64,000 nucleotides of DNA, from assembly GCA_028379895.1 (NCBI GenBank), contig JAOEKQ010000002.1:56620-120619 (forward strand), read 5' to 3'. The translations under genes were made by a program, and so were the position numbers. The notes beneath the pieces were generated by a model that ran no database searches, was not told the DNA's origin, and saw nothing but the letters and a program-made list of their open reading frames with translations. Positions 6,793 to 63,309 of the stretch are shown here, piece by piece (position 1 is the first letter of the stretch; the number at the start of each line of letters is the position of its first letter). This stretch comes from Burkholderiales bacterium. Its GTDB lineage: Bacteria; Pseudomonadota; Gammaproteobacteria; Burkholderiales; Eutrophovitaceae.

Positions 6793-6849
6793 TTCACTAA
6801 TGCTTTTTTTTGTTTGAGTTGAATTTGCTCAAGGTAGCAAAGTAACGCG

Positions 6850-8876: not shown

Positions 8877-8888
8877 ATTATTATTCAT

Positions 8889-9653: not shown

Positions 9654-10363
9654 GTTTCTTGGAAACTCATGCGCTGGGAGTAAGGTACGGCGGTATTCGT
9701 GCAGTGAGAGGTGTTGACATAAGTGTTGAAGAAGGTGAAACAGTCGCTTTAATTGGCGCGAATGGCGCAGGCAAGAGCTCTATGCTCAATGCCATAGCTG
9801 GTGTGCTCCCACATACAGGACGCGTGTCTTTTGACAATGAAGACCTCACTAACAGGCCGGTCTTTGATCGTGTAAGGCTTGGTATTTCAATGGTGCCAGA
9901 GGGTAGAGGTGTTTTTGGTCGTTTGACGGTCGAAGAAAATCTCCTTATGGGCGCCTACCTTGGTAACAGTCAGAAGGACCAAGATTTGGACTTGAAACAG
10001 ATGTACGACTTTTTTCCGAGGCTAAAGGAGCGACGGCGTCAAACAGGTGGGACGTTATCGGGCGGTGAGCAGCAAATGTTGGCAATCGGCCGGGCTTTGA
10101 TGTCGAGACCAAAATTACTATTGTTGGATGAGCCCTCGATGGGTTTGGCACCGATTATGGTTGAAAAGATTTTTGAAGTTATTCGAGGTGTATCCAAAAC
10201 AGGAGTTACAATTTTATTAGTCGAGCAAAATGCTCGTTTAGCTCTACAGTCGAGTCAAAGAGCTTACGTGATGGAAAGTGGGGAGTTGTCGATAACTGGT
10301 GAATCCAACGAGTTACTCTACAGCCCGAAAATACGTTCCTCTTATCTGGGCGAGGGTGACTGA
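9650..10363 (+). CDS. livF: Branched-chain amino-acid ABC transporter ATPase LivF/BraG
   Basis: Walker A GANGAGKSS, signature LSGGEQQMLAIGRAL, Walker B LLLLDEPSMGLAP. 4-nt overlap with livG. Confidence 0.92.
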   Translation: MSFLETHALGVRYGGIRAVRGVDISVEEGETVALIGANGAGKSSMLNAIAGVLPHTGRVSFDNEDLTNRPVFDRVRLGISMVPEGRGVFGRLTVEENLLMGAYLGNSQKDQDLDLKQMYDFFPRLKERRRQTGGTLSGGEQQMLAIGRALMSRPKLLLLDEPSMGLAPIMVEKIFEVIRGVSKTGVTILLVEQNARLALQSSQRAYVMESGELSITGESNELLYSPKIRSSYLGEGD

Positions 10364-10408
10364 CTTAAATTTCAGTAATATATGAATATATTGTGTCAAC
10401 TCCTATAT

Positions 10409-11308
10409 CTAGACCCAATCTTTACCAATCAAATATTTTTCATATAGCGCTCTTTCGGCGGTATTGCTATCTGGACGCCAGTTATAACGCCATTTCACCC
10501 GAGGTGGCATAGACATCAAGATTGATTCAGTTCGCCCACCGGATTGAAGTCCGAACAGGGTTCCGCGATCAAACACTAAATTAAATTCTACGTAACGACC
10601 TCGCCTATACGCTTGAAAATCTTTTTCTTTATCGCTAAATGGTATCCCTTGTCGCTTCCTAACAATTGGCATGTAGCCAGCTAAAAAATGTTGACCTACA
10701 CTACGAGTCATTGCAAAGCACGTATCAAAATCAGGTGTTGATAGATCGTCAAAAAATATACCACCAACACCTCTGGGTTCCTGGCGATGTTTTAAATAAA
10801 AGTAGCTATCACACCATTTTTTAAATTTGGGGTGCAGTGCTTTATCAAAAGGGTCGAGTGCGGCCTTACAGGTCTTATGAAAGTGAACACAATCCTCGTC
10901 AAACCCGTAGTATGGGGTTAAGTCCATACCACCGCCAAACCACCAAACTGGCTCTTCAGATTCTTTCGCTGCAAAGAAAAAGCGAACATTCATGTGCACG
11001 GTTGGCACATAAGGATTATTGGGATGTAGTACGACTGAGACGCCCATAGCCTCGAAAGATCGACCTGTTAACTCAGGTCGCGCTGTGGTGGCAGATGGTG
11101 GTAACTGGTCCCCAAAGACATGAGAAAAGTTGACTCCAGCCCGTTCGAACAAGTTACCATCTTCCAAGACTTGGCTAGTACCTCCGCCGCCAGACTCTCG
11201 ATCCCATGTATCGGTAATAAAGGACTTACCATCAAGTTCCTCTATTTCTTGAACAATATTATCTTGAAGTGCTGTGAGAAATTGTTTTACTGAGTCAACT
11301 TCTATCAT
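10409..11308 (-). CDS. hemF: Oxygen-dependent coproporphyrinogen-III oxidase
   Basis: 299 aa. [23 protein letters not shown] and [18 protein letters not shown] are typical HemF blocks. Confidence 0.93.
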
Positions 11309-11313
11309 AGCTA

Positions 11314-12582
11314 TTAATTTTTGATTACTCTGTAACCAATATCGGTCCGATATTGTTTATCAGCGAAGGAGATTCGGTTTGAGGCCTCTAGGGCTAACTC
11401 ACGGGCTTGAATTGCGTTATCTCCTATGGCTGTTACACACAAGACTCGGCCACCACTAGTGACGAGTTGATCGTCAATTAGAGCAGTGCCCGCATGAAAT
11501 ACATGCACGTCTGCGTTGTCCTTCGGTGGAATCGTGATGATATCGCCTTTTCGCGGTGACTGAGGATAGCCTTTAGCTGCAAGTACAACACCTAATGCAG
11601 TTCTTTGGTCCCAATTTGGTTCGACTTCGTTTAATGTGCCCGTTAGCGCATGCTCCACCAAAGTGACTAAATCGCTTTTTAGGCGCATCATGATTGGCTG
11701 GGTTTCCGGGTCACCAAGCCGACAATTAAATTCAAGGACTTTCATCGTTTGATCGGGGGCAATCATTAGTCCTGCATATAGAAATCCAATAAAAGGTGTT
11801 CCTGCCTCCTTCATGCCATTAAGGACAGGCTCAATTACATCCTTCATGGCTTTATCATGTAGCTCCGGGGTCACTATCGGAGCTGGTGAGTAAGCACCCA
11901 TACCCCCGGTATTAGGTCCTTTGTCATTATTAAGTAATCTTTTGTGATCTTGGCTCGTCGCAAGTGGAAGAATATGTTCTCCGTCGATCATCACAATAAA
12001 GCTGGCTTCCTCACCTATTAAAAACTCCTCTATGACGACTTTCGCTCCCGCGACACCCATGCCGTTATCTACGAGCATCATATCTACTGCTTCGTGCGCC
12101 TCCTGTTCGGTCATAGCCACAACGACACCTTTGCCGGCTGCTAAGCCATCAGCCTTAACAACGATCGGTGCTCCTTTGGCAGAGATGTATTTGTGGGCTT
12201 CAGTCGGCGCGGTAAATGTGCTGTATTCAGCAGTTGGGATATCATGATCTGCCATGAATTGTTTAGCGAAATCTTTTGAGCTCTCAAGTTGTGCCGCCGC
12301 TGCTACCGGCCCAAAAATCATAAGTTCTCTGGCTTTGAACGCATCAACGATACCCTCGCTTAATGGCGCTTCAGGGCCGACTATAGTCATATCAATTTTT
12401 TCTGAGATCACGAAATCGATTAAATCGTCAATTTCGCTCAAGGGTACGTTTTCTATGCCGTCCTCAAGGGATGTCCCTGCGTTTCCCGGTGATACAAACA
12501 CTTTGCTTGCTCGTGGAGATTGAATAAGGCGCCAGGCAAGTGCATGCTCCCTGCCGCCGCTTCCAATAACGAGGATCTTCAT
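11314..12582 (-). CDS. purD: Phosphoribosylamine-glycine ligase
   Basis: [18 protein letters not shown]-terminus and ATP-grasp body. The track ORF extends 10 codons further upstream (to 12612). I prefer the ATG at 12582, which gives the canonical N-terminus. Confidence 0.93.
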
Positions 12583-44876: not shown

Positions 44877-46625
44877 ATGTTAATGGATTATACGAACGAC
44901 CTAATTAATCAACTAAAAGCTGCGATTGTTGCGGTGTTAACCGAAATGGGAATTGTTGTCTCTGAAAAGAGGATTACTTTAGAGCGTCCAAAGTCCAGCG
45001 ATCATGGAGACTATGCCTGTAACATCGCGATGCAGCTTGCCCGCGAACTAAAACAAAATCCTAGGGAAATTGCGACGCAGGTGACTACCAAATTAACCGA
45101 TCATAAACTGGTAAAAGTATCGGAGGTAGCTGGTCCGGGATTCGTTAATATTTTTCTAAGTGATGAGTGTCATCAAGAAGTGATTCACAATGTGATTAAG
45201 TTGGGACCTGAGTTTGGCCGTAGTAATGTCGGACAGGGTAACCGCGTCCAAGTCGAGTTTGTTTCGGCGAACCCAACTGGACCTCTTCACGTAGGTCATG
45301 GGCGCGGCGCTGCCTATGGCGCAAGTATCGCTAACCTACTCGATGCGGTGGGCTATGAAGTAACCAGAGAATATTATGTCAATGATGCTGGTCGTCAGAT
45401 GGATATTTTGACAGTGTCAACATGGTTAAGGTATCTGGAGCTATTCGGACATGAGATTCAGTTCCCAGCAAAAGGATATCAGGGCGATTACGTGCGTGTT
45501 ATGGCAGAAGCGTTGAAGGAGCAAGCTGGTGATCGTTATAACCCAGGCCCAGGCCTATTGAATTTTCAAAAAACTCAGTCTGTCGACGAAGAGCAGATAC
45601 TCGACCAACTAATTAGTGCGGCAAAAAAACACTTACGCTCAGGTTATCAGGTAGTCCACAATGAGGTGCTAAGGCAACAGTTAGGGGCGTGTAAAGCGGA
45701 ATTAACCTCATTCGGAGTAGATTTTGATTGCTGGTTTTCGGAGCAGTCCTTGTTTACCGGAGGAAAAATCGAGACCGTAGTAAACGAGCTGAAGCAAAAG
45801 GGTCACTTATACGTTGAGGATGGCGCCACATGGTTTAGGTCGACCGAATTTGGTGACGAGAAAGATCGTGTTGTCCAGAGAGATAACGGGGCTTATACCT
45901 ACTTCGCATCTGACATCGCGTACCACGTAGATAAATTTGAAAGAGGATTTAATACAGTCATAAATATCTGGGGAGCAGACCATCATGGTTATATACCCCG
46001 AGTACGTGCTGCGCTATCCGCACTGGGTGTATACGATGATTCGAGTCAATTACGAATACCGTTAGTGCAGTTTGCGGTGTTATACCGAGACGGTGAGAAA
46101 GTAGCAATGTCAACGCGCTCGGGGGAGTTTGTGACCTTAAAAGAATTGAGGGACGAGGTTGGAAGAGATGCAGCTAGATTCTTTTATATCTATCGGAAAA
46201 GCGATCAACATTTGGACTTTGATTTGAATCTTGCTAAAGCTCAAAACAATGAGAATCCTGTTTATTATATTCAGTATGCTCATGCACGTTGCGCTAGTAT
46301 ACTTGCTAAATCAGAGCAAAATATAACCGATATTTCCGGTATAGATTTAAGCGGCTTAACGCAGCGCAATGAGTTTGATCTGATGCGCGCATTAGCTGAC
46401 TTCCCAATTTTAATTGAGTCTGCATCGCAAGAGCTATCGCCACACATTGTAGCGTTCTACCTTAAAGATCTTGCGGGGTTATTCCATAGCTACTACAACT
46501 CGACTCAAATATTAAGCGGTGATGCGCTTCTAATTCAATCGCGGCTTCTTTTGCTTAGAGCGGTCAAACAAGTGATCAAAAATGGTTTAGGACTAATTGG
46601 GGTCAATGCTCCTGAACGCATGTAG
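44877..46625 (+). CDS. argS: Arginine-tRNA ligase
   Basis: 582 aa. SANPTGPLHVGHGRGAA (HIGH-type), MSTRSG (KMSKS-equivalent), C-terminal DALR anticodon-binding domain ending ...APERM. Confidence 0.95.
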   Translation: MLMDYTNDLINQLKAAIVAVLTEMGIVVSEKRITLERPKSSDHGDYACNIAMQLARELKQNPREIATQVTTKLTDHKLVKVSEVAGPGFVNIFLSDECHQEVIHNVIKLGPEFGRSNVGQGNRVQVEFVSANPTGPLHVGHGRGAAYGASIANLLDAVGYEVTREYYVNDAGRQMDILTVSTWLRYLELFGHEIQFPAKGYQGDYVRVMAEALKEQAGDRYNPGPGLLNFQKTQSVDEEQILDQLISAAKKHLRSGYQVVHNEVLRQQLGACKAELTSFGVDFDCWFSEQSLFTGGKIETVVNELKQKGHLYVEDGATWFRSTEFGDEKDRVVQRDNGAYTYFASDIAYHVDKFERGFNTVINIWGADHHGYIPRVRAALSALGVYDDSSQLRIPLVQFAVLYRDGEKVAMSTRSGEFVTLKELRDEVGRDAARFFYIYRKSDQHLDFDLNLAKAQNNENPVYYIQYAHARCASILAKSEQNITDISGIDLSGLTQRNEFDLMRALADFPILIESASQELSPHIVAFYLKDLAGLFHSYYNSTQILSGDALLIQSRLLLLRAVKQVIKNGLGLIGVNAPERM

Positions 46626-46636
46626 AATTGCAACTT

Positions 46637-47176
46637 ATGGCGAAGCATAGAAATAAAACAGGTAGGGCAGGCGCTCCGAAGCGAAGGATGGGACTAGGGC
46701 TTTTCCTAGGAACTTTCATCGGGCTTAGCGTTGCTATCGCAGTAACTTTTTATGTGAATCAAGCAACACAACGGATCGGTGATAATCATGATGTAGTTGT
46801 TTCAAACGATCAGCTAAGTCAGGACCTGGTGGACGATGAAGTCGATTTTGATTTTTATAAACTGTTACCAGGGGAGGGTAGAGCTCCAGACCTTTCAAGA
46901 GAGACGCGAGAGCGGAATCCTATTCGACGCGGCATACTGTATTACATACAGGTTGCGGCCCTATCAAATGCGACAGAGGCTGACAACTTAAAAGCGAGGC
47001 TGGCTATGAACGGTTTTGAGTCACGCATACAATTTTTTGAGACTCCGGAAGGAAAATTGTTGCATCGTGTTCGTATTGGTCCTTACGAAACAGTAAGTGA
47101 GGCAGAAAAGATTGAGGCGGAAATGGCGGAATTTAACTTTGACGTGACAGTCATAAAGGTTAAAGACGATAATTAA
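46637..47176 (+). CDS. SPOR-domain septal peptidoglycan-binding protein (FtsN/DedD-like)
   Basis: N-terminal basic segment plus one TM (GLGLFLGTFIGLSVAIAVTFYV). C-terminal SPOR domain (YYIQVAALSNATEADNLKARLAMNGFESRIQ...HRVRIGPYETVSEAEKIEAEM). The track starts at TTG 46628; ATG 46637 is preferred. Confidence 0.8.
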   Translation: MAKHRNKTGRAGAPKRRMGLGLFLGTFIGLSVAIAVTFYVNQATQRIGDNHDVVVSNDQLSQDLVDDEVDFDFYKLLPGEGRAPDLSRETRERNPIRRGILYYIQVAALSNATEADNLKARLAMNGFESRIQFFETPEGKLLHRVRIGPYETVSEAEKIEAEMAEFNFDVTVIKVKDDN

Positions 47177-47198
47177 AAACAAACAGACGGATAAGCTT

Positions 47199-47831
47199 AT
47201 GAAAAATTTATTAATTATATTTATGGTGTTTTTGTCCCATTTAAGTTTGCAAGTGTCGGCTCAAGCAATTACTGAGGGTAAAGAATATCAAGTTATCCAA
47301 GCGCAAGGTGATAAGGGAGATGTTGTACAGGTATATGAGTTTTTTAGTTATGCGTGCGGTCACTGTTATGAATTCCAGCCTTTAATTGAGTCTTGGGCAG
47401 AGAGCCCCCCCGAGGGCGTTCAGTTTAACTATATGCCAGCTGTTTTTAATGAGCGAATGATACCGCTAGCGAAGTTATTTTTTACACTTGAGGAAATGCA
47501 GTTATTAAAGTCTGTACATTATCAAGTATACGAAGCAATCCATGAAAAACGAATAAACCTTCTCACTGAGAAGAGAATTCTCAGTTGGGCTGAGGATAAT
47601 AAATTAATTAAATTTAATGAATTTGAGAAGTTATATAAATCTTTTAGTGTGGACTCAAAAGTAAAAAAAGCGGTTCAGTTGGTCAGGTCTTACCGACTTC
47701 CTGGAACGCCATATGTCACGGTTAAAGGTAAGTACATTACCGGACCGTCAATGGTATTGCGGTCAGAGGGTGGCGGAGTAGATGTGGTTCGTTTTATTGC
47801 GACATTGAATACGCTCATTGAAAAAGATTAA
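47199..47831 (+). CDS. dsbA: Periplasmic thiol:disulfide oxidoreductase DsbA (CGHC active site)
   Basis: 210 aa. Signal peptide, EFFSYACGHCYEF active site, cis-Pro loop LPGTPYV. Conserved argS-SPOR-dsbA context. Confidence 0.88.
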   Translation: MKNLLIIFMVFLSHLSLQVSAQAITEGKEYQVIQAQGDKGDVVQVYEFFSYACGHCYEFQPLIESWAESPPEGVQFNYMPAVFNERMIPLAKLFFTLEEMQLLKSVHYQVYEAIHEKRINLLTEKRILSWAEDNKLIKFNEFEKLYKSFSVDSKVKKAVQLVRSYRLPGTPYVTVKGKYITGPSMVLRSEGGGVDVVRFIATLNTLIEKD

Positions 47832-47844
47832 TTAGTACTGGCTG

Positions 47845-48495
47845 ATGCTGCTGGTGAGTATTTACCTTCATTGCTTGCCATTAATATTTTTGTTTGTTAC
47901 CGAGTCTGCAAGTGCTGACCCGATACTAAACAGGGATTACGCTCAATTCGGTTCTCGTATTGGACCTGCTCGCGACCGCATAGAATTGATCGAGTATTTT
48001 TCTTACAGTTGTTTAGGCTGTTATCACTTTGGTCCCGACGTAGACCAGTGGTACCTTGGTGCTCCTGAAACTGTTGATCTGGTTCTTATGCCAATCATCA
48101 ATAGTAAGCAATCTGAGTCGTTGGCACGTTTATATTACGCTCTAGAAGCTTTGCAGAAACTACTGTACCTCCATTATCATGTCTTCAGTGCGATACATAA
48201 TGACAAGCAGAGATTGTGGGAGCTTGATGCGCAACTAAAGTGGGTTAATGAACATGGTATTGATCCTGAAGAGTTTAAAAGACAATTAAATTCTAAATGG
48301 GTTAATACACGCGTAAACGAGGCGTATCAGTTTGCTAAACGTTATCCTGTTTCTGTAACGCCTACGTTAATTATTGACGGTACTTATTGGACCACTGCAT
48401 CAATGGTAGAGTCCGCAAGTCGACTCGCCCCTCTACTTGATTTTTTAATTGATAAAGCGACTTTGAAGCGAGAAATGTTGATGGACGTCAAGTGA
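47845..48495 (+). CDS. Second DsbA-family thiol:disulfide oxidoreductase (CLGC active site)
   Basis: 216 aa. Signal peptide, EYFSYSCLGCYHF active site, cis-Pro loop VSVTPTLII. Same overall architecture as the upstream dsbA but highly diverged. Confidence 0.8.
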   Translation: MLLVSIYLHCLPLIFLFVTESASADPILNRDYAQFGSRIGPARDRIELIEYFSYSCLGCYHFGPDVDQWYLGAPETVDLVLMPIINSKQSESLARLYYALEALQKLLYLHYHVFSAIHNDKQRLWELDAQLKWVNEHGIDPEEFKRQLNSKWVNTRVNEAYQFAKRYPVSVTPTLIIDGTYWTTASMVESASRLAPLLDFLIDKATLKREMLMDVK

Positions 48496-49250
48496 ACAAG
48501 ATTTTCATTACAGGCGCCTCGAGTGGTATAGGTATGGCTTTGGCGAGGGAGTTTTCTCATGAAGACGTTAGACTTGGCCTTATTGCAAGACGGAAAGATT
48601 TATTAGACCGCTTCGCGAACGATCTTGCTGCGGACGTTTACGTCTATCCCGCCGATGTTGGTGATTCTTTAGTCATGAGATGTGCAGCGGAGGCATTTAT
48701 TCAGTCGGTAGGTGTGCCCGACGTGGTGATCGCAAATGCAGGGATTTCGTCAGGTACGCTTACCAGCGAGGTTAAAGATCAGGTTATTTTTGAACAGATC
48801 ATGCGGACTAATGTTCTGGGTATGGTGCATACGTTTCAACCTTTTGTTGAGGCTATGAAAAATCGTGGCTCCGGGACTTTAGTGGGTATTTCAAGCATTG
48901 CAGGGTTTAGGGGTATTCCTGGCTCTGGCGCTTATTCCGCCTCTAAAGCGGCAGCAACTGCGTATTTAGAAAGTCTCCGTGTTGAGTTATCTTCAAGCGG
49001 CGTGAACGTGCTAACCGTATGTCCAGGTTATATTAAAACACCGATGACTGACCTAAATCCGTTTTACATGCCGTTTCTCATGGATGCGGACCGAGCAGCT
49101 CTTTCAATTAGGAAGGCCATCATCAACAGAAAGCATTTTCATGTTTTGCCATGGCAAATGAGCATAGTGGGGTTTTTCTTACGTCTAATGCCAAGATGTA
49201 TATACGATTTGCTTATGAGGTGGGCGCCTCGTAAACCTAGATCTTTATGA
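48492..49250 (+). CDS. Short-chain dehydrogenase/reductase family oxidoreductase
   Basis: 252 aa. TGASSGIGMALA cofactor motif and catalytic YSASKAA. GTG start overlaps the preceding stop by 4 nt. Confidence 0.88.
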   Translation: MNKIFITGASSGIGMALAREFSHEDVRLGLIARRKDLLDRFANDLAADVYVYPADVGDSLVMRCAAEAFIQSVGVPDVVIANAGISSGTLTSEVKDQVIFEQIMRTNVLGMVHTFQPFVEAMKNRGSGTLVGISSIAGFRGIPGSGAYSASKAAATAYLESLRVELSSSGVNVLTVCPGYIKTPMTDLNPFYMPFLMDADRAALSIRKAIINRKHFHVLPWQMSIVGFFLRLMPRCIYDLLMRWAPRKPRSL

Positions 49251-49270
49251 CGCGTATTGGGTCTGATTTT

Positions 49271-49906
49271 TTAGCTCGAATTAAGAACGGCTTCCAATGA
49301 ATTAATAGCTTGCTGCGCACTGGTTACTTTTATGGTGGTCATGCCCATGTTGCGCGCAGGTTTTAAATTACTTCCAATGTCATCAAGAAAAACGGCCGAG
49401 CTTGGCTTGACGCCGATGACATCACATGCAGTCAAGAAGAATTGCTCCTCGGGTTTTCGAGATCCAACTTTTGCGGACTCAATGACATGTGAAAACGTGT
49501 CAAATACGTTTTGCCATTCGTTTAACCGAGTCGTACCTATTAAATTCGCTAGCGTCGGTGTTTTCGGAAAATTATTCGTCAAGCATGCAACCTGATAATT
49601 ATGTTTATATTTTTGTATGGCCGATATCATCGAGGGTCTTAAAGGTGTATATACTAATTTAAGAATTTCTAAACCACTGACGTCGTAGCCCCTATTAATT
49701 GCTTCTCGCCGGAATAATTCGTCAAATTCATCAGGAGATATTTCGCCACGCTCAAGTTTCGCCCAAGCGTTTTTATCGTGTTGGTCACTATTCAGGTTTC
49801 GGATAAAATTTTCGGGTAGATCCCGTTCACGCTCGAATACGTTGAATGCGTCGAAGGGGCTTTCGGTGATGACTCCACCAAAATCGAAAAGGATCGCCTC
49901 GATCAT
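49271..49906 (-). CDS. HAD-superfamily hydrolase (subfamily IA, epoxide-hydrolase-N-terminal-like phosphatase type)
   Basis: 211 aa. Motif I ILFDFGGVI, motif II ACLTNN, motif III/IV K..........FLDDIGSNL. Confidence 0.8.
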   Translation of the reverse strand: MIEAILFDFGGVITESPFDAFNVFERERDLPENFIRNLNSDQHDKNAWAKLERGEISPDEFDELFRREAINRGYDVSGLEILKLVYTPLRPSMISAIQKYKHNYQVACLTNNFPKTPTLANLIGTTRLNEWQNVFDTFSHVIESAKVGSRKPEEQFFLTACDVIGVKPSSAVFLDDIGSNLKPARNMGMTTIKVTSAQQAINSLEAVLNSS

Positions 49907-49951
49907 GCTTGACGCTCCTTAATTAGTAGCACGCGTAATGATTGGTTCTCA

Positions 49952-50257
49952 TACAGTTACTTCCTTGCACGAAATCGAAGAGTAAATGTGTTTTAAGTTC
50001 TTTAATTGATTTTCAGACTTACTCAAATCTCGCCGTTCGTTGGAGGTCTTCCCCAGTTTTTTCAACATACTCTTGTGATCTGACTTGCTGTTGAATCCGA
50101 ATTCATAGTGCCCCAGAGTCTTATCTAAATTTATGGACTTCCGATATTCATATTTCCAACATTTTCTTAGTTCAGCAGGTCCAAAGGAATCTTTGGGAGC
50201 TCTCTCAAAAAGTATTATGGCGCTTTCCCAGTCTTCTTGTCGAAACGTTATATTTAA
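49952..50257 (-). pseudogene. Start-less 102-codon open frame, possible 3' remnant of a decayed gene
   Basis: My minus-strand translation between in-frame stops (50258-50260 and 49949-51) reads LNITFRQEDWESAIILFERAPKDSFGPAELRKCWKYEYRKSINLDKTLGHYEFGFNSKSDHKSMLKKLGKTSNERRDLSKSENQLKNLKHIYSSISCKEVTV. The only ATG/GTG/TTG is 36 codons from the end, so it is absent from the track. No family recognised. Confidence 0.3.
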
Positions 50258-50361
50258 TCAAAAGCTTGAATATGATGCAATGAAGTCTTTTGATGGAGGC
50301 CGATTATGTAACTTAAGTATAAGCGGACTTACAATCAGATGTTAGTGTCTTCAGCGGCTTT

Positions 50362-50868
50362 CTACTGCGGACACATTTCTGTTAGATAGTGCGTTACGCT
50401 TCTGAGCCAGGGCACGTCGAGACCTTTGGCACTTACAAATTCATCCTGTAATTGGTAAGCCTGTACTTCCCGTTTGATCCAACTTTTACAGTCTGGATTC
50501 CTCCCAAAGTTATGAAATTGAAGAATGTGTACGAGTTCATGATAAAGAATGCCTTCCCCTTCAACCGTGCTCACGTCTAATCCGTTGACTAAAAAAACTG
50601 TTGCGTCTTTGGTCGCGGCCTCTGCGTTACAATTTCTGTTTTTACAAACCATGCCGTTAAGGAATTGTTGCGTAACGAAAACAACATTCGGGAAGTTTGG
50701 GTCTCCCACTTTTGGCACGCTCATTCCGGTCTTTTGGTAGATCCTTAAGAGAAGCTCTTTTAAGTGTTCGTTTTCGAGCCTATCCGCTGCTACGACCGAT
50801 GAGGGCAAAATAACAGAATTTGAAAGCCAAACAAACGCAAGTGTGGCAAAGAAGTGAAGACTTTTCAT
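50362..50868 (-). CDS. Secreted 4-Cys HExxH-motif protein, putative small Zn-metallopeptidase (family not recognised)
   Basis: 168 aa. Signal peptide MKSLHFFATLAFVWLSNSVILPSSVVAA/D. HELVH at residues 110-114 (nt 50527-50541), Glu134 exactly 20 residues after the second His. Cys75, 80, 127 and 166. Confidence 0.6.
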   Translation of the reverse strand: MKSLHFFATLAFVWLSNSVILPSSVVAADRLENEHLKELLLRIYQKTGMSVPKVGDPNFPNVVFVTQQFLNGMVCKNRNCNAEAATKDATVFLVNGLDVSTVEGEGILYHELVHILQFHNFGRNPDCKSWIKREVQAYQLQDEFVSAKGLDVPWLRSVTHYLTEMCPQ

Positions 50869-51000
50869 TTTTACCTAATTTAATGGTGGTAATATTCTTA
50901 CGATACATTAATTAATGAAAAGTTCTTAAATACTATATGTTCTGTTGCTTTGTGATGATTCCTTTTAATTACACATATGTGTGTAAAATAATTGAGAGTG

Positions 51001-51772
51001 ATGGTGGGGTTTAAGTCTGCGGTAGCGCGTCTCGTTCGTTCTCGTTTTGGCGCTAGTAGGGACCTTGGAAATATGGCGTTCGGAAGAAATTCTGAAATTG
51101 ATAACGACATCAAAGAAAAGTACGGCTTCGATGGTGAGTTACTCAGATTATTTTCGTCCAACCAAGGGTCGCCAGTACACAAGTGGCACCATTACATTCC
51201 ATTGTATGACCAGTATTTTTCTCGTTTTCGTAATTCTCCCGTACGATTTTTAGAAATTGGCGTGTTTAGGGGGGGTAGCTTACAAATGTGGCGTAAGTAT
51301 TTCGGAGGTAGTGCCGTTATTTTTGGTGTCGATAGCGACCCAGCTTGTGGTGAGCTGAATGGCCAATCCGGACAGGTAAGGATTGGATCCCAAGATGACC
51401 CCAATTTTTTGGAGCATGTGATTGACGAAATGGGGGGGGGTGGATGTCGTCTTGGATGATGGGAGCCATCAGGCCAAACATCAAATTGAATCTTTTAAGT
51501 TTTTATTCCCAAGGATGAGTAAAGGCGGAACCTATATGGTTGAAGACCTTCATACTTCATTCTGGCGCGGCTACGGTGGTGGGTATGGTCGTAGCTCAAA
51601 CTTTTTTGGATTTTCGACGGACATGATAAACGATATGCACCATTGGTGGCACTCTAATCGATTGAAGTATCCATCTTTGAAAAATATGTGCTCTGGTATC
51701 CACATACATGATTCGATCGCAGTGTTTGAGCGAGGATTGGCTTTCGAGCCCACTCACTCATTAGTCCCGTGA
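51001..51772 (+). pseudogene. Class I SAM-dependent methyltransferase (glycan/natural-product O-methyltransferase-like), frame-disrupted at a G9 tract: phase-variable OFF state, sequencing error or pseudogene
   Basis: Track ORFs 50992..51459 and 51422..51772 are the N and C halves of one protein. N half: HKWHHYIPLYDQYFSRFRNSPVRFLEIGVFRGGSLQMWRKYFGGSAVIFGVDSDP. C half: VDVVLDDGSHQAKHQIESFKFLFPRMSKGGTYMVEDLHTSFWRGYGGGYG. Deleting one G of the run 51432-51440 fuses them into a 256-aa ORF. Confidence 0.75.
51432..51440 (+). repeat. Homopolymeric G9 tract inside the methyltransferase coding sequence
   Basis: gaaatGGGGGGGGGtggatgtc, counted directly. The longest other G or C runs I noticed in the window are 6-7 nt. 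Confidence 0.95.
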
Positions 51773-51798
51773 CATTCTATTAAACAACGTATTCGATT

Positions 51799-51996
51799 AT
51801 GAGAATAATATTATTAACGATGGGCGGTATTATAATCGGGTGGTTATTAGTTCAGATTTTGAAAGGACGAAATGAACCGCTTAGCCGAACTGCATCGATT
51901 GGTGTCACTGTCATTCGGCTCATTAGTTATATGATTATTGGCGCTGTGGTGGTTTTTTTAGTGTTTCTTGCATGGCAAGAGCTAACTAGGCATTGA
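51799..51996 (+). CDS. Hypothetical small membrane protein (two predicted TM helices)
   Basis: 65 aa: MRIILLTMGGIIIGWLLVQIL...IRLISYMIIGAVVVFLVFLAW. It starts 27 nt after the methyltransferase. Its stop and the stop of the convergent gene form the palindrome TGAATTCA (51994-52001). No family recognised; could be spurious. Confidence 0.35.
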   Translation: MRIILLTMGGIIIGWLLVQILKGRNEPLSRTASIGVTVIRLISYMIIGAVVVFLVFLAWQELTRH

Positions 51997-51998
51997 AT

Positions 51999-52376
51999 TC
52001 ACTGTGCACAGATATACTTCACCACATGAAAACCTAATGAATTAGATGAGGCCTGATCCCATTGATCAGAGCGTTTTGGCATGCCCGATTCTCCTTCCCC
52101 CATTGATTCGGCGAAGGTGTTGACCGAGAGCATTTTGTATCTATTTTCCTTGCAGTCAATTTGAAACAGTACTTTTGCTGAACGGTACCCCTCCGGTTGC
52201 TGGTCGATGAAATCGTACAGCGCCCAAGCATATACTCCCTCAGGTTGAGCATTCAGGGATTTGACATCTGTGTATGTATAGAAAATCTTACCTTCGTCTA
52301 TTTTAGTCCACTCAGCGCAGGCTAATAAAGGGAATGCTAAGAGTAAACGGAGCGCCGTTGAGAACATTTTTTTCAT
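51999..52376 (-). CDS. Secreted protein resembling the surface-adhesin E (Haemophilus protein E-like) family
   Basis: 125 aa. Signal peptide MKKMFSTALRLLLAFPLLACA/E. The pattern W.KI....IFYTYTD.KS ... RSAKVLFQIDC...Y ... W......S......KYIC, with a Cys pair, matches my recollection of that family. Not verified. Confidence 0.5.
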   Translation of the reverse strand: MKKMFSTALRLLLAFPLLACAEWTKIDEGKIFYTYTDVKSLNAQPEGVYAWALYDFIDQQPEGYRSAKVLFQIDCKENRYKMLSVNTFAESMGEGESGMPKRSDQWDQASSNSLGFHVVKYICAQ

Positions 52377-52405
52377 ATTGATACTCGGTCGGGTGATGTT
52401 CTTTT

Positions 52406-52711
52406 TTAAGAAATAATTTCTTTTGAAATATTATCTATAACAATTGGATTGTTATAGAAGTTGATTTCTGGCTTTGAATATCTTTGGGTCAGCCAATCTA
52501 TTCGTTCGTCATCAAACCATTTTTGCGCATTCTCTAATGTATCGAAATGGTAAACGCCGCCGGCAATATTATTTTTTATATCGGAGAGATAGTTTTTACG
52601 AGTTAGTCCCTGGGTATTTTTATACAGCTCTGAGGATTCCATAAATTTTTCTTTTAATTTTGTTTCGGTTATGTCCAGAGATATCTTAAAAGTGACGATT
52701 ACAATAATCAT
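52406..52711 (-). CDS. YdhR-like putative monooxygenase (Dabb/ABM-type small protein)
   Basis: 101 aa, the same length as E. coli YdhR and a similar pattern (…AGGVYHFDTLENAQKWFDD… versus [20 protein letters not shown] in YdhR). Confidence 0.55.
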   Translation of the reverse strand: MIIVIVTFKISLDITETKLKEKFMESSELYKNTQGLTRKNYLSDIKNNIAGGVYHFDTLENAQKWFDDERIDWLTQRYSKPEINFYNNPIVIDNISKEIIS

Positions 52712-52763
52712 ATTAGAAACCTTTTACTTTTTTAAAAACATAAAATTGTAAGCGTCTGACGCT

Positions 52764-54593
52764 TTACTCCACCGTTACAGACTTTGCTAAATTTCGTGGT
52801 TTGTCGACGTCGGTTCCTTTAGCTAATGCCACATGGTACGCAAGTAACTGTAGTGGAATAGAATGAAGAATTGGACTAAGGTGACCGAGGTGTTCAGTCA
52901 TTTTTATAATATGTAGGCCTTCGGTTTCATCCAAATTTGAGCCAGCGTCAGCGAACACATAAAGCTCACCTCCGCGCGCATGAACTTCCGATAGGTTGGA
53001 CTTTAGTTTTTCAAGTAATGTATCGTTAGGTGCTACTGCTACCACTGGCGTGTCACCATCAACAAGTGCTAGAGGACCGTGTTTTAATTCGCCCGCCGGA
53101 TACCCTTCCGCATGAATATAGGAAATCTCTTTAAGCTTCAATGCGCCTTCAAGTGCGATGGGGTAGTGAATACCTCGACCTAAAAATAATGCATTTTGTT
53201 TCCTGGCTATTACACTTGCCCAATTTATAATTTTCGGTTCCATTTTTAGTGCAAGAGTGATGGCTGCAGGCAAGTGTCTTAGCCCAGTCAACAGCGAATG
53301 CTCCAGGTTCTGTTGGAGTCTCCCTTTGAGCTTTGCAATTACTAGGGTAAGTAAATATAAAGATGCCAGTTGGGTTGTGAACGCTTTAGTTGATGCCACA
53401 CCAATTTCAGGACCCGCTCGTGTTAAAAATTTAAGTTTTGAGCCTCTAATGATGGAAGATTCTGGTACGTTACAAATACCGAGCGTTTTCTCTTGACCAA
53501 GCTGCTTTGCATAATCTAATGCCGCAATAGTATCTGCTGTCTCCCCTGACTGGGAGACAGCGACGATAAGTGTGTTGGGGTTTGCAATCGGTTTGCGATA
53601 GCGGTATTCAGAGGCAATCTCTACGAAGACTGGTAATTGCGCAAGTTCCTCTAGCCAATACTTTGCCGTCAGGCCGGAGTGGTAACTCGTGCCACACGCG
53701 ATAATAGTTATTGAGTCGATGGTTGATAAAATTGAGGAAGCTTCCGTGCCAAAGAGCTCTGGGGCGATGGCACTGGAGCCAGTTACCATCTCTAGGGTCG
53801 CTGCTAATGCACCTGGTTGCTCAAAAATTTCTTTCTGCATGTAGTGATCAAATCGACCTAACTCGACTTGATCTGAAGATAATTCGCTCTCGTAGATTTC
53901 TCTTTTTACGGTTTTACCATGGGAATCAAAAAAAGTTGGACCATTAACCGTAACATCTGCGATGTCACCATCTTCCATGAAAATCATGCGTCTGGTGCAT
54001 TGTAAAAGTGCTGAGGCATCACTCGCACAATAAACTTCGTTTTCTCCTAAGCCGACTAATAATGGAGCGCCTCGTCGAGCGAGAATAATTCTCTTGTTAG
54101 ATTGCTCGCTAATAACCGCCAGCGCGAAAGCGCCCACCAATTCCGAAACTGTATGACGCACCGCTGTGAGTAGGTCAGGCGAGTTTTCTAAATGTTTATG
54201 TATGAGGTGTGCGATGACCTCACTGTCCGTATCCGAAGTGAATTCATAGCCTTGCTCGGACAGTGTTTGTCTAAGAGACTCATGGTTTTCGATGATGCCG
54301 TTGTGTACGAGCGCCAGACCATCTCGACTGATATGAGGATGCGCATTGCGTTCTAGGGGTGCGCCGTGAGTAGCCCAGCGTGTATGAGCAATACCAAGTT
54401 TAGATTTTACATTGAGAGATCGTACTTTTTCAGACAGTTCGCTCACGCGGCCGCTATTTCGAACTCGATTTAATTTTTCATTAATGACTGCGAGTCCGGC
54501 GGAGTCATAGCCGCGATATTCGAGTTTCAGGAGTCCGCCAATTAAAAAGGGGACTATGTCTTTGTCGGAGACGGCGGCAACGATTCCACACAT
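52764..54593 (-). CDS. glmS: Glutamine-fructose-6-phosphate aminotransferase
   Basis: 609 aa. MCGIVAA Ntn Cys, two SIS domains (IIACGTSYHSG, SQSGETADT), C-terminus DKPRNLAKSVTVE. Confidence 0.96.
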   Translation of the reverse strand: MCGIVAAVSDKDIVPFLIGGLLKLEYRGYDSAGLAVINEKLNRVRNSGRVSELSEKVRSLNVKSKLGIAHTRWATHGAPLERNAHPHISRDGLALVHNGIIENHESLRQTLSEQGYEFTSDTDSEVIAHLIHKHLENSPDLLTAVRHTVSELVGAFALAVISEQSNKRIILARRGAPLLVGLGENEVYCASDASALLQCTRRMIFMEDGDIADVTVNGPTFFDSHGKTVKREIYESELSSDQVELGRFDHYMQKEIFEQPGALAATLEMVTGSSAIAPELFGTEASSILSTIDSITIIACGTSYHSGLTAKYWLEELAQLPVFVEIASEYRYRKPIANPNTLIVAVSQSGETADTIAALDYAKQLGQEKTLGICNVPESSIIRGSKLKFLTRAGPEIGVASTKAFTTQLASLYLLTLVIAKLKGRLQQNLEHSLLTGLRHLPAAITLALKMEPKIINWASVIARKQNALFLGRGIHYPIALEGALKLKEISYIHAEGYPAGELKHGPLALVDGDTPVVAVAPNDTLLEKLKSNLSEVHARGGELYVFADAGSNLDETEGLHIIKMTEHLGHLSPILHSIPLQLLAYHVALAKGTDVDKPRNLAKSVTVE

Positions 54594-61938: not shown

Positions 61939-61963
61939 GGGAGCTAATGGATCTTGAGCAATC

Positions 61964-61992
61964 GGGGGCAGCGATATTCTGCCCCCTTTTTT
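61964..61992 (+). terminator. Rho-independent terminator after the symporter
   Basis: GGGGGCAG-cgatatt-CTGCCCCC: 8-bp GC-rich stem (61964-71 / 61979-86) followed by T6 (61987-92). It lies inside the track's 61954-start ORF, which argues for the downstream ATG 62020 start. Confidence 0.9.
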
Positions 61993-62019
61993 ATATTTTT
62001 AGATCAAAAGGAAAGGTCG

Positions 62020-63309
62020 ATGACTAAGTTGTTAATACATCTGGCTGAACTTCGTGCCGATCCGATGAATTGGCTCGCTGTCTTAGTCTTTTTTACCGCT
62101 GCTTTTTTTCTGACCCTTAAAGGTACGGCCACCACCAGCTTGTTCTTAATGTTTTTGATTTGTAGTTGGTCGATTATCAAAACCCCCAGACATTACTTTG
62201 CTGCTCGAGGATCTCAATTTTGGGTGCTAATTTTATGTTTATTATCCCCTTTTCTTACTGAATTACTTGCCCAAATTGGGCGGGGAAGTTTTATAGGCTC
62301 GAGCCTCGATGGCCCATCTAGGGCGATCTTGGCGGCGGGTGTATTTGTCTATCTTTCAAAAAAAGACTGTACAAATTTGCTTTCTGCATTGAGCATTGGT
62401 TCTGCTGTTGGCATCGTGCTGGTGTTCATGTACTTGCAGGTTTTCCCTGAATACTATTGGAGTGGTCGGGCCGCCACGTATTTTGTAGACCCTATTACGC
62501 TGCCGTGCTATGTGGTTGTTTTGCTAGGGCTTTATTTGTTTGGAGATTATTCAAAGATCCCTAAAAAAATTAGCTATTTCGTAACGTTGCTGATTTCCAT
62601 ATTAACGATATATATCGTGATTGAATCTCAGTCGCGTAGCGCTTGGGTTGCCGGAATTGTTTTGGCCGAAGTCTATCTTTTGTATGTGTTCAGAGCCTCG
62701 TTAATGAAACAGATTCTAGTTTCGCTGGCGCTAGCGCTCGGTGTTTTTGCAATTTTTACTTTTTCTGATGTTGTTAACGGTAGATCATCAGAGGCTTTAG
62801 AAGGGCTGGTTGCCTTCTTGGAAGAAGGCGGAGGGCAGCAATCGTCTACCGGTCAACGGATGGTATTGCTGTTAATCGATTTTGAACTTATAAAAGACAA
62901 TCTTTTTTTTGGCGTTGCCGATGGTGTCATGCCTACGTACGAATATTTACAATCGAGAATCCCATCAATAAATGAAGGGATATATGGGATTAAAGCTCTT
63001 GCAGGCTCTCATTCTGAGGCGTCTGCGCAATTGGTTCGTAAGGGTCTATTTTTAGGTGGATTTGCTTTGTGGGGCTTATTCCTATACCCACTTTATTTGG
63101 TTAGCTGTAAACTCAGGGCGTGGTCGACGGCAGACCTGGGACTTTCTGCGGGGATTTATGGATTAATTGTTCCCATATTTTTTTCTGGCCTTACGATTCA
63201 GGTGTTTAATTTGAAAATGACGATGTCATTTTATATGCTGTGCCTTGCAATCCTTCTGGCTTATTGTTTGCCTAGGATTGAGGTCAGCGAGCATGGGCTT
63301 AAAAACTAA
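62020..63309 (+). CDS. O-antigen ligase / O-glycosylation ligase family (Wzy_C-type) polytopic membrane protein
   Basis: About 429 aa from ATG 62020 (AAAGGAAAGG Shine-Dalgarno region upstream), about 10-12 TM helices. The central ...ESQSRSAWVAGIVL... block followed by a large loop is typical of the WaaL/PglL/Wzy_C domain. Function is assigned by family resemblance only. Confidence 0.7.
   Translation: MTKLLIHLAELRADPMNWLAVLVFFTAAFFLTLKGTATTSLFLMFLICSWSIIKTPRHYFAARGSQFWVLILCLLSPFLTELLAQIGRGSFIGSSLDGPSRAILAAGVFVYLSKKDCTNLLSALSIGSAVGIVLVFMYLQVFPEYYWSGRAATYFVDPITLPCYVVVLLGLYLFGDYSKIPKKISYFVTLLISILTIYIVIESQSRSAWVAGIVLAEVYLLYVFRASLMKQILVSLALALGVFAIFTFSDVVNGRSSEALEGLVAFLEEGGGQQSSTGQRMVLLLIDFELIKDNLFFGVADGVMPTYEYLQSRIPSINEGIYGIKALAGSHSEASAQLVRKGLFLGGFALWGLFLYPLYLVSCKLRAWSTADLGLSAGIYGLIVPIFFSGLTIQVFNLKMTMSFYMLCLAILLAYCLPRIEVSEHGLKN

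What the first reader, a model, noticed from the sequence alone, without database searches (positions are those of the whole stretch)
50992..51772. G9 homopolymer splits a glycan-type SAM methyltransferase: candidate slipped-strand phase switch
Two track ORFs (50992..51459 and 51422..51772) are clearly the two halves of one class I SAM-dependent methyltransferase. The frame change falls exactly inside a run of nine G (51432-51440). With eight G the sequence reads ...IDEMGGVDVVLDDGSH... and gives one uninterrupted 256-aa ORF from ATG 51001.

A 9-nt G run stands out in this AT-leaning window; the other G/C runs I saw are no longer than 7. Poly-G/C tracts inside surface-glycan modification genes, methyltransferases included, are the classical contingency-locus mechanism in Campylobacter, Haemophilus and Neisseria. 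As far as I know that mechanism is not an established feature of free-living streamlined betaproteobacteria, so a real ON/OFF switch here would be notable.

The neighbours (secreted proteins, an adhesin-E-like gene) fit a surface-variation theme. Equally plausible alternatives are a homopolymer sequencing or assembly error, or a fixed pseudogene.
Basis: partly seen in the sequence, partly recalled or inferred. Interest (0 to 1): 0.6.

Follow-up and report, generated by a model that had tools for sequence, protein, structure and literature searches.

The report
One extra G splits methyltransferase gene
A run of nine Gs, one more than in a sister strain of the same uncultured marine bacterium, cuts a well-conserved sugar-methylating enzyme gene in two; this looks like an ordinary one-base slip, biological or technical, at an accidental repeat, not an evolved on/off switch.

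Summary
G9 at 51432-51440 is the only G/C run of 8 or more in the window. It splits one 256-aa class I SAM methyltransferase, and G8 restores the EMGG-VDVVLDDGSH motif that 80+ homologues share.

The protein is closest to the Mg-dependent deoxysugar O-methyltransferases MycE and SpnK. Its catalytic Asp/His/Asp residues lie downstream of the frameshift, so G9 gives a null product.

The source is an NCBI MAG (locus tags N8Z26_01440/01445). A contig from the same species (97.5% identical, run SRR21474778) carries G8 and an intact gene. Sister-clade loci have an interrupted G6-A-G.

The gene is a syntenic core gene under strong purifying selection (dN/dS about 0.06). The window's own branch shows no relaxation. 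An old pseudogene is therefore refuted: the extra G is very recent or not real.

Nothing indicates an evolved contingency locus. The tract arose by a synonymous GGA>GGG change, G8 is near the composition expectation, and no relative has a longer tract.

My estimates:
- 0.45: a genuine recent +1 slip at an accidental mutation-prone tract.
- 0.35: a consensus miscall.
- 0.15: true phase variation.

Read-level tract counts would decide between these, and no reads were available.

The parts
51001..51772 (+). Frameshifted gene for a 256-aa (as repaired) MycE/SpnK-like SAM-dependent sugar O-methyltransferase. The start is ATG 51001; GTG 51004 is the start used by relatives.
   Evidence: Pfam Methyltransf_24. 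PDB hits to MycE 3e-25 and to 8IA9 1.4e-24, which is SpnK. Foldseek top hits are SpnK and MycE at about 1e-16. It is 92-94% identical to intact orthologues.
51432..51440 (+). G9 homopolymer, which is G8 (ATG GGG GGG GTG) plus one G. It is the site of the +1 frameshift, at the Met144-Gly-Gly-Val147 motif at the start of strand beta-4.
   Evidence: The conspecific L096 has G8. The sister clade has G6-A-G or GGGAGGAG. The model places the beta strand at residues 147-153.
51001..51459 (+). N-terminal fragment as encoded: 152 aa ending ...EMGGGGCRLG*. It keeps SAM motif I (LEIGVFRGGS) but lacks the catalytic half.
   Evidence: Identical to NCBI MDC1311104.1, 'hypothetical protein N8Z26_01440'.
51452..51772 (+). 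C-terminal fragment as annotated in the source MAG: 106 aa from TTG 51452. The mechanical ORF starts at 51422. It contains DDGSH and EDL, equivalent to MycE Asp275, His278 and Asp304.
   Evidence: Identical to MDC1311105.1, N8Z26_01445. Residue mapping comes from the alignment and the residue list in PMC9275233.
51269..51275 (+). Second G run (G7) in the same gene: AGG GGG GGT, in frame. It was created on this strain's branch by a synonymous GGT>GGG change.
   Evidence: L096 has AAG GGT GGT and the relatives have AGG GGT GGT.
50869..51000 (.). Divergent promoter/leader region between the DUF4157 (eCIS_core) gene and the methyltransferase gene. It contains an 18-nt near-palindrome (50969-50986) made by a 12-nt insertion found only in this species.
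   Evidence: Alignment A5. The consensus promoter scan was uninformative.
51799..51996 (+). Co-oriented 65-aa hydrophobic ORF 26 nt downstream. It is conserved in all relatives and is probably co-transcribed (inference), so it may suffer polarity from the frameshift.

Best explanation
The run is a one-step (+1) expansion of a species-specific G8 run. That G8 arose by neutral synonymous drift (GGA>GGG) in the invariant Met-Gly-Gly-Val motif of a conserved, syntenic MycE/SpnK-like sugar O-methyltransferase gene.

I commit to the extra G being a genuine, very recent replication-slippage allele. During replication, nascent-strand misalignment in the G8 run adds one G. Translation then leaves the frame after Gly146 and stops 6 codons later. 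The product is a 152-aa fragment with the SAM-binding motif but without the Mg/substrate-binding Asp153, His156 and Asp182, so it is a null allele. A -1 slip could restore it.

This is an 'accidental mutation-prone tract' of the kind described for siaD 7C or mga 8C. It is not an evolved contingency switch.

**Shown:** the anatomy, G8 in a conspecific, the origin of the tract, strong purifying selection, and the absence of any other lesion.
**Inferred:** that G9 is real in the DNA, that the cause is slippage, that the fragment is inactive, and that the substrate is a sugar.
For: - **Anatomy.** G9 and the repaired ORF.
- **Motif conservation.** EMGG(V/I/L)D is invariant in 80+ homologues, and none has a run of 8 or more at this site.
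- **Conspecific state.** Contig L096 (97.5% identical) has G8 and an intact 255-aa gene.
- **Sister clade.** It has G6-A-G, so a single A>G change made the G8.
- **Selection.** dN/dS is 0.06-0.07, similar to GlmS at 0.05. The window branch has 13 synonymous and 5 nonsynonymous changes, no worse than its intact neighbours. Since the split from L096 the window gained 7 synonymous and 2 nonsynonymous changes, against 7 and 3 in the intact copy. Downstream of the shift the window gained 3 synonymous and 0 nonsynonymous changes.
- **Assembly quality.** 37 homopolymers of 7 nt or more (ten of them 8-mers) lie inside intact ORFs, and the other overlapping ORF pairs are separate complete genes. The assembly is therefore not generally indel-prone.
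- **Gene loss happens here.** The adjacent TPR gene is a decayed pseudogene.
- **Expected direction.** G8 tracts in C. jejuni mutate mostly by +1 insertion, with G8>G9 at 6.9e-4 per division (PMC3401435).
- **Category.** PMC11868660 defines 'accidental' mutation-prone tracts.
- **Null product.** The catalytic residues map downstream of the shift.
Against: - No reads were available, so a consensus miscall at the single longest G run cannot be excluded.
- This is the only frameshift among about 54 genes, and it sits exactly where technical errors also concentrate.
- A null allele of a gene with dN/dS 0.06, intact in every relative, should be rare as the majority allele of a large free-living population unless selection or a clonal bloom favoured it.
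- The sequencing platform and coverage of the MAG are unknown.
- The mismatch-repair status of the organism is unknown, so the real slippage rate cannot be estimated.
Confidence: 0.45

Rival explanations
1. Technical artefact. The organism has G8 and an intact gene, and the MAG consensus miscounts the homopolymer by one through a sequencing, assembly or polishing error.
For: - Every evolutionary signal says the gene is functional. It is intact in 9 relatives, including a conspecific with G8.
- dN/dS is about 0.06, with no relaxation on the window branch or downstream of the shift.
- There is no second lesion.
- The error would sit at the longest G/C run in 64 kb. [quoted passage not shown]
- The source is a MAG from samples that hold at least two co-occurring strains.
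- A related public contig (L086) shows how error-prone assemblies shatter genes.
Against: - The window shows no other frameshift. 37 homopolymers of 7 nt or more, ten of them 8-mers, are in frame, so a generally indel-prone assembly is unlikely.
- Majority-rule short-read consensus rarely miscalls an 8-mer (my own knowledge, not tested here).
- The platform and coverage are unknown.
Confidence: 0.35
2. Evolved slipped-strand phase variation (a contingency locus). G8 is ON and G9 is OFF, and the population switches the sugar methylation of a surface glycan at high rate, for example under phage or grazer pressure.
For: - G8 and G9 alleles exist in sequences of one species from the same set of runs.
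- G8 and G9 are the typical working lengths in C. jejuni, where tract conservation between strains is also weak (PMC3401435).
- The enzyme family acts on sugars and sits next to glycosyltransferases in some genomes.
- The G8 run is shared by two alleles that differ by 3.8%.
- The promoter-MT-orf65 segment is a local divergence peak between the two strains, at 4.3% against 0.9% in the flanks.
- A second G run (G7) arose in the same gene.
- Homopolymer phase variation is known in the Burkholderiales genus Bordetella (PMC1891110).
Against: - The two alleles belong to different strains, not to one clone.
- The tract is at the minimum length and near the composition expectation (about 0.5 runs of G8 or more per window).
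- It was made by one synonymous change and is absent from all relatives.
- Retention of G8 over dS of about 0.12 is expected neutrally (my estimate is about 0.77).
- The tract lies mid-gene in a strongly constrained syntenic core gene.
- No other tract of 8 or more exists in 64 kb.
- Reversibility and switching rate, the defining criteria of phase variation (PMC11868660), are untested.
Confidence: 0.15
3. Fixed, decaying pseudogene. The gene was lost some time ago and the frameshift is one of its lesions.
For: - The neighbouring TPR gene in this genome is such a pseudogene: 43% identity, stop codons and no start.
- The two halves are annotated as separate hypothetical proteins in the source record.
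Against: - There is a single lesion only.
- dN/dS is 0.06.
- Window-branch changes are 13 synonymous to 5 nonsynonymous, and 3 synonymous to 0 nonsynonymous downstream of the shift since the split from the intact conspecific copy.
- The start codon, the ribosome-binding region and all family-invariant residues are intact.
Confidence: 0.02
4. Recoding. G9 is the genomic state, and full-length enzyme is made by +1 ribosomal frameshifting on GGG GGG G or by RNA-polymerase slippage on the G run.
For: - tRNA-Gly can re-pair perfectly after a +1 shift within the run, which the sequence shows directly.
- Polymerase slippage on long homopolymers is known (my own knowledge).
- Low-level leaky expression is therefore plausible.
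Against: - No homologue uses a frameshift here; all are in frame without a tract.
- No stimulatory element or slow A-site codon is present. The next codon is GGT, the commonest Gly codon.
- A conspecific is simply G8.
Confidence: 0.03

Closest known systems
'Accidental' mutation-prone homopolymers in otherwise conserved genes: N. meningitidis siaD 7C, group A Streptococcus mga 8C>7C, and M. tuberculosis homopolymer indels (as discussed in PMC11868660)
   Same: A short (7-9 nt) G/C run inside an ORF, near the length expected by chance. Single-base slips give loss of function that is reversible in principle. There is no evidence that mutability was selected.
   Different: Those cases rest on cultured isolates with observed variants. 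Here there is one MAG consensus (G9) and one conspecific contig (G8). Neither the phenotype nor the reality of G9 has been verified.
Campylobacter jejuni poly-G contingency loci, such as cj1139c (G8) and cj0031 (G9) (PMC3401435)
   Same: A G8/G9 run on the coding strand inside an ORF. ON and OFF differ by one G, and G8 is biased towards +1 insertion. cj1139c is a glycan-modifying gene (a galactosyltransferase, from my own knowledge; the paper text I read does not state its function), as this gene is likely to be.
   Different: C. jejuni has 11-29 tracts of 7 or more per genome with a mode of 9-10, a dearth of intermediate lengths, measured rates of 1e-4 to 1e-3, and no MutS/MutL mismatch repair (the last point is my own knowledge). 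Here there is one tract in 64 kb at the minimum length, in a core gene under strong constraint, with rate and repair status unknown.
Homopolymeric-tract polymorphism in Bordetella (order Burkholderiales) (PMC1891110)
   Same: The same bacterial order. C/G tracts longer than 8 are polymorphic between close relatives, and orthologues often carry an interrupted version of the tract (for example C5GC3 against C9), just as G6-A-G stands against G8/G9 here.
   Different: Bordetella is a host-restricted pathogen with many such tracts, mostly in promoters or cell-envelope genes, and some were verified within single cultures. This organism is an uncultured marine planktonic bacterium with one unverified tract.
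MycE, SpnK and TylE: SAM- and Mg-dependent deoxysugar O-methyltransferases of macrolide and spinosyn pathways (PDB 3SSM, 8IA9)
   Same: The catalytic domain is homologous: E = 3e-25 by sequence, about 1e-16 by fold, and roughly 30% identity. The Asp/His/Asp triad (MycE 275/278/304) is conserved as D153/H156/D182.
   Different: This protein lacks the roughly 150-aa N-terminal auxiliary domain and the loop that carries MycE Tyr208. It does not sit in a natural-product cluster. It belongs to a widespread family of about 255 aa (5,587 hits) whose substrate is unknown.
Listeria monocytogenes inlA 5' poly(A) tract (PMC2831843)
   Same: A homopolymer frameshift that truncates a protein and reverts at about 1000 times the point-mutation frequency. 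The authors propose it as a general way of inactivating genes.
   Different: That tract is A/T and lies at the extreme 5' end, truncating the protein at 8 aa, and it was verified experimentally. Here the tract is G and lies mid-gene at codon 145.

Membership tests
SSR-mediated phase-variable locus (criteria of PMC11868660) | Expression change is caused by length variation of a repeat at a single locus | tested here: met
   G8 gives an intact 255/256-aa ORF and G9 gives a 152-aa truncation. Both lengths are seen in sequences of one species, although in different strains.
SSR-mediated phase-variable locus (criteria of PMC11868660) | Switching is reversible, with both directions observed without selection | not testable with these tools
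   This needs cultures or clone-resolved deep sequencing. Only two consensus sequences exist.
SSR-mediated phase-variable locus (criteria of PMC11868660) | Switching rate is above about 1e-5 per division, seen as within-population length heterogeneity | not testable with these tools
   No reads were available. Exact look-ups of G8- and G11-repaired proteins and of fragment variants found only the MAG's own two fragments.
SSR-mediated phase-variable locus (criteria of PMC11868660) | The tract is longer or more frequent than chance, which would be evidence of evolved mutability | tested here: not met
   A G run of 8 or more is expected about 0.5 times per window from composition. One synonymous change created it. 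No run of 8 or more occurs in 9 relatives or about 78 homologues, and there is no other such tract in 64 kb. Only 64 kb of the genome could be examined.
MycE/SpnK/TylE-type metal-dependent sugar O-methyltransferase | Class I Rossmann SAM-binding fold with a Gly-rich motif I | tested here: met
   Pfam Methyltransf_24 at 31.3 bits against a cut-off of 26.3. The AF2 model has pLDDT 79. The top 13 Foldseek hits are all SpnK or MycE, at E = 1e-16 to 7e-14, and the next class is at 6e-7.
MycE/SpnK/TylE-type metal-dependent sugar O-methyltransferase | Metal-binding and catalytic residues Asp275, His278 and Asp304 (MycE numbering; PMC9275233) | tested here: met
   They align to D153, H156 and D182, which are invariant in alignment A1.
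MycE/SpnK/TylE-type metal-dependent sugar O-methyltransferase | Active-site Tyr208 and the N-terminal auxiliary (tetramerisation) domain | tested here: not met
   The 7-residue loop that carries Tyr208 is absent: the alignment reads EIGV.......FRGGS. Only about 60 residues precede the catalytic domain, against about 180 in MycE. The protein is therefore a homologue of the catalytic domain, not a MycE orthologue.
MycE/SpnK/TylE-type metal-dependent sugar O-methyltransferase | Methylates a sugar hydroxyl group | not testable with these tools
   This is inferred from homology and from glycosyltransferase or Wzx neighbours in Propionivibrio and Phaeobacter homologues. No glycosyltransferase is adjacent in this clade.
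Decaying pseudogene | Relaxed selection and multiple disabling lesions | tested here: not met
   dN/dS is 0.06. The window branch has 13 synonymous to 5 nonsynonymous changes, and 3 synonymous to 0 nonsynonymous downstream of the shift. There is a single lesion.
Programmed frameshift or transcriptional-slippage gene | The shift site is conserved among orthologues, which all need the shift | tested here: not met
   All orthologues are in frame with no tract, and the conspecific has G8.

The most novel reading that the evidence does not exclude
The tract is a working slipped-strand ON/OFF switch of a sugar O-methyltransferase in an uncultured, free-living marine Burkholderiales bacterium. G8 (ON) and G9 (OFF) states would coexist in the same waters. 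The elevated divergence of the promoter-MT-orf65 cassette would reflect long-term selection on a surface-glycan decoration, for example by phages. This would extend contingency-locus biology from host-adapted pathogens to planktonic bacteria.
Probability: 0.15. Interest if true: 0.55.

Novelty: new member of a known kind. Interest (0 to 1): 0.25.

Why it matters
If G9 is real, it shows a conserved glycan-modifying enzyme knocked out by the most mutable site in its gene, in a natural population of a free-living marine bacterium. That is a small, testable entry point into whether homopolymer slippage produces surface variation outside host-associated pathogens.

If it is an artefact, it is a useful caution. 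The public record annotates the two halves as separate 'hypothetical proteins' (MDC1311104.1 and MDC1311105.1) rather than as one methyltransferase.

Either way the case is cheap to settle. Four SNPs within 20 nt of the tract allow tract length to be phased to strain within single short reads.

Tried and rejected
**Searches for same-strain sequence**
- Exact-protein look-ups for same-strain contigs covering the tract found nothing. I tried the DUF4157 gene, orf65, GlmS and the N-terminal fragment.
- The SDR gene gave two 99.8%-identical Logan contigs that stop short of the locus.
- Only the YdhR look-up reached the tract, and that contig came from a different strain.
- Look-ups of ten repaired or fragment protein variants (G8 and G11 repairs, alternative starts) found only the MAG's own C-terminal fragment.
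- P0191 contigs end before the tract. L098 ends at the 51414 SNP, so that break reflects strain SNPs and not tract heterogeneity.
- The genome-collection scan did not contain the source genome.

**Ideas tested and dropped**
- A GC3 or GGG-codon shift as the cause of the tract: there is no shift.
- Other split genes in the window: the overlapping ORF pairs are RecG/UbiA, GltB/GltD and a nucleotidyltransferase/kinase pair, all complete.
- The consensus promoter and terminator scan was uninformative.
- Rfam and tRNA scans found nothing near the locus.
- NCBIfam has no model for the protein.
- An old pseudogene and a recoding mechanism were both considered and rejected (see the rival explanations).
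Full report
**1. Observation**

Window 51432-51440 is a run of nine G. ORFs 50992..51459 and 51422..51772 overlap at the run on the + strand. With G8 the sequence gives one 256-aa ORF from ATG 51001 reading ...IDEMGGVDVVLDDGSH.... G11 also restores the frame but adds a glycine, and G10 does not restore it.

G9 is the only G/C run of 8 or more in the 64-kb window. The next longest are G7 at 51269 in the same gene and C7 at 47405. Composition alone predicts 0.12-0.14 G runs of 9 or more per window, and about 0.5 runs of 8 or more. G runs of 6 or more are nevertheless depleted (3 seen, about 9 expected), and GGG-GGG encodes only 1 of 126 other Gly-Gly pairs. The run is real and mildly unusual, but not statistically extraordinary.

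**2. What the gene is**

The repaired protein matches Pfam Methyltransf_24 and no NCBIfam model. Its best solved relatives are MycE (3SSM, E = 3e-25) and 8IA9 (1.4e-24), over residues 62-248.

An AlphaFold model built on alignment A1 has pLDDT 79 and pTM 0.80. Its 13 best Foldseek PDB hits are all SpnK or MycE, at E = 1e-16 to 7e-14 and about 30% identity. The next fold class (FtsJ/Spb1, fibrillarin, COMT) starts at 6e-7. MycE and SpnK methylate hydroxyl groups of 6-deoxyhexoses.

MycE's Asp275, His278 and Asp304 (PMC9275233) align to D153, H156 and D182, which are invariant across the family. MycE's Tyr208 loop and its large N-terminal domain are absent. The protein is therefore a homologue of the catalytic domain in a widespread family of about 255 aa (5,587 hits at E <= 1e-10).

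In some genomes the homologue lies next to a Wzx-type flippase and GT4/GT2 genes (Propionivibrio) or a GT61 gene (Phaeobacter). In Microcystis it stands alone. 'Glycan-type' is a reasonable inference, not a demonstrated fact.

The frameshift falls after Gly146, at the start of strand beta-4 (model strand 147-153). The 152-aa product keeps SAM motif I but loses all three catalytic residues, so I infer it is a null allele.

**3. Source and relatives**

Exact look-ups identify the source as an NCBI MAG named 'Burkholderiales bacterium', on a contig of 193,666 bp. The two halves are annotated as separate hypothetical proteins: N8Z26_01440 (MDC1311104.1, 152 aa) and N8Z26_01445 (MDC1311105.1, 106 aa).

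Nine loci come from a sister clade or beyond: L001, L002 and L082-L087, at roughly 85% nucleotide identity across the region, and L003, at 72% protein identity. All nine carry the gene intact.

At the tract position the sister clade reads ATG GGG GGA GTG (L001 reads GGA GGA) and L003 reads GGA GGG ATT. Among about 78 more distant homologues fetched as DNA, none has a run of 8 or more there, although the peptide EMGG(V/I/L)D is invariant.

The gene order ArgS-SPOR-DsbA-DsbA-SDR-HAD-TPR-DUF4157-MT-orf65-adhesinE-YdhR-GlmS-GlmU is conserved out to L003. The methyltransferase is thus a syntenic core gene of this lineage, not part of a variable island.

**4. A conspecific with G8**

The exact YdhR protein of the window occurs on Logan contig SRR21474778_79552 (L096, 2,845 bp). 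L096 is 97.5% identical to window 50307-53151. It carries the methyltransferase as an intact 255-aa gene with ATG GGG GGG GTG GAC, which is G8.

The in-frame G8 state therefore exists in the species, and the window differs from it by exactly +1 G. Contigs 99.75-99.82% identical to the window (L094, L095) occur in SRR21474778 and SRR21474777 over 46257-49555. L096-like contigs occur in SRR21474777, SRR21474778 and SRR21474779. At least two strains therefore co-occur in these samples.

L098 stops at window 51413, which is the position before the 51414 G/A SNP. That contig break reflects strain SNPs, not tract heterogeneity.

**5. Age of the lesion**

Pairwise dN/dS of the repaired gene against four relatives is 0.06-0.07. 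That is as low as GlmS (0.05) and lower than most neighbours.

Changes polarised with L003 put 13 synonymous and 5 nonsynonymous substitutions on the window branch. The intact neighbours show 17:10, 17:9, 25:16 and 19:11.

Against L096 there are 29 substitutions in 768 nt (19 synonymous and 7 nonsynonymous codons). Window-derived changes number 7 synonymous and 2 nonsynonymous, and L096-derived changes 7 and 3. Downstream of the frameshift, the unambiguous window-derived changes are 3 synonymous and 0 nonsynonymous.

The start codon, the leader and all family-invariant residues are intact. An old pseudogene is refuted. The extra G is younger than almost all of the strain divergence, or it is not real.

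By contrast, the adjacent TPR gene is a genuinely decayed pseudogene (about 49922-50345, minus strand). It shows 43% identity where orthologues share 93%, the N-terminus and start codon are lost, and it has in-frame stops. The remnant region also aligns with L097, a contig of the L096-like strain. Gene loss next door is real and older.

**6. Real or technical?**

The window is not generally indel-prone. 37 homopolymers of 7 nt or more (ten of them 8-mers) lie in intact ORFs. The other overlapping ORF pairs are separate complete genes. For contrast, the related contig L086 has GlmS in three pieces and GlmU in two, as an error-prone assembly would.

However, all of those in-frame controls are A/T runs apart from one C7. 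The single frameshift sits at the single longest G run, where both biology and technology fail first (PMC8808543). Without reads the question cannot be closed.

I put a real recent slip at 0.45 and an artefact at 0.35.

**7. Evolved switch or accident?**

The criteria for phase variation are a single-locus mechanism, observed reversibility, and a rate detectable without selection, about 1e-5 (PMC11868660). Only the first is met here.

*Against an evolved switch:*
- The tract was created by one synonymous change in a motif (M-G-G-V) that becomes G8 whenever both glycines use GGG.
- It is at the minimum working length and near the chance expectation.
- No relative has it.
- It lies mid-gene in a strongly constrained core gene.
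- No other long G/C tract exists in 64 kb.

*For an evolved switch:*
- G8/G9 are the working lengths in C. jejuni. G8>G9 occurs at 6.9e-4 and G9>G8 at 2.1e-4 per division, G8 is biased towards insertions, and tracts are only weakly conserved between strains (PMC3401435).
- Homopolymer polymorphism with interrupted orthologous tracts is documented in Bordetella, a member of the Burkholderiales (PMC1891110).
- The G8 run is shared by two alleles that are 3.8% apart.
- Strain divergence peaks over the promoter-MT-orf65 segment, at 4.3% against 0.9% in the flanks.

The best-fitting category is the 'accidental mutation-prone tract' that the review describes for siaD 7C and mga 8C. I give evolved phase variation 0.15.

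**8. Verdict**

The feature is a one-base length change at a young, accidental G8 run in a conserved MycE/SpnK-like methyltransferase gene. It is either a very recent null allele or a consensus miscall.

It is a new instance of a well-known kind of event and has modest interest. Four SNPs within 20 nt of the tract make the decisive read-level test straightforward.

Noticed in passing
window 49922-50345 (minus strand), between the HAD hydrolase and the DUF4157 gene: Decayed remnant of a 150-aa TPR protein gene that is intact in all sister-clade loci and in L003. It shows 43% identity where orthologues share 93%, its N-terminus and start codon are lost, and it has in-frame stops. The remnant region is also covered by a contig of the conspecific L096-like strain (L097), so the loss looks species-wide and old.
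   Followed up: yes
window 50869-51996 versus L096: Divergence between the two conspecific strains is concentrated in the promoter-MT-orf65 segment: 49 differences in about 1.1 kb, or 4.3%. The flanks differ by 0-1.4% (DUF4157 gene 1.4%, adhesin-E 0.8%, YdhR 0%, GlmS 1.0%). Most differences are synonymous, and the derived changes are symmetric between the two alleles. This suggests an older coalescence or a recombination import of this cassette.
   Followed up: partly
window 50969-50986: An 18-nt near-palindrome, TTACACATATGTGTGTAA, lies just upstream of the methyltransferase start. It was created by a 12-nt insertion present only in the window and in L096 (which reads TTACACGTACGTGTGTAA) and absent from the sister clade. 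It could be an operator or a leader hairpin.
   Followed up: partly
window 51269-51275: A second G run (G7; AGG GGG GGT) lies in the same gene. It arose on this strain's branch by a synonymous GGT>GGG change. L096 has AAG GGT GGT. Two of the three G runs of 6 or more in the window are in this one gene.
   Followed up: yes
window 51001-51459 and 51452-51772: The public record annotates the two halves as separate 'hypothetical proteins' (MDC1311104.1 and MDC1311105.1) rather than as one frameshifted methyltransferase.
   Followed up: yes
L086 (JGI 3300046170, contig Ga0494229_00143, 533 kb), locus coordinates 4761-11575: This related contig has GlmS in three pieces, GlmU in two, and the DUF4157 and TPR genes split. 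It looks like an indel-prone, probably long-read, assembly. Its methyltransferase is intact, with G6-A-G at the tract position.
   Followed up: partly
window 47845-48495: The second of two tandem DsbA-like genes evolves much faster than the first. It shares 61-65% protein identity with the sister clade against 87% for the first, and its dN/dS is 0.16 against 0.06.
   Followed up: partly
window 50362-50868 (minus strand): The divergently transcribed neighbour is a 168-aa DUF4157/eCIS_core-domain protein. It has an N-terminal hydrophobic leader and an HExxH motif (YHELVHILQ), so it may be a secreted metallopeptidase-like protein. It is conserved and syntenic in all relatives.
   Followed up: no
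window 61954-63309: A Wzy_C (O-antigen ligase/polymerase-like) membrane protein gene lies about 10 kb downstream of the methyltransferase. It is the nearest clearly glycan-related gene apart from glmS and glmU.
   Followed up: no
L084 8812-9114: One sister-clade contig carries a second, diverged YdhR-like copy (59% identity) between YdhR and GlmS. The window lacks it.
   Followed up: no
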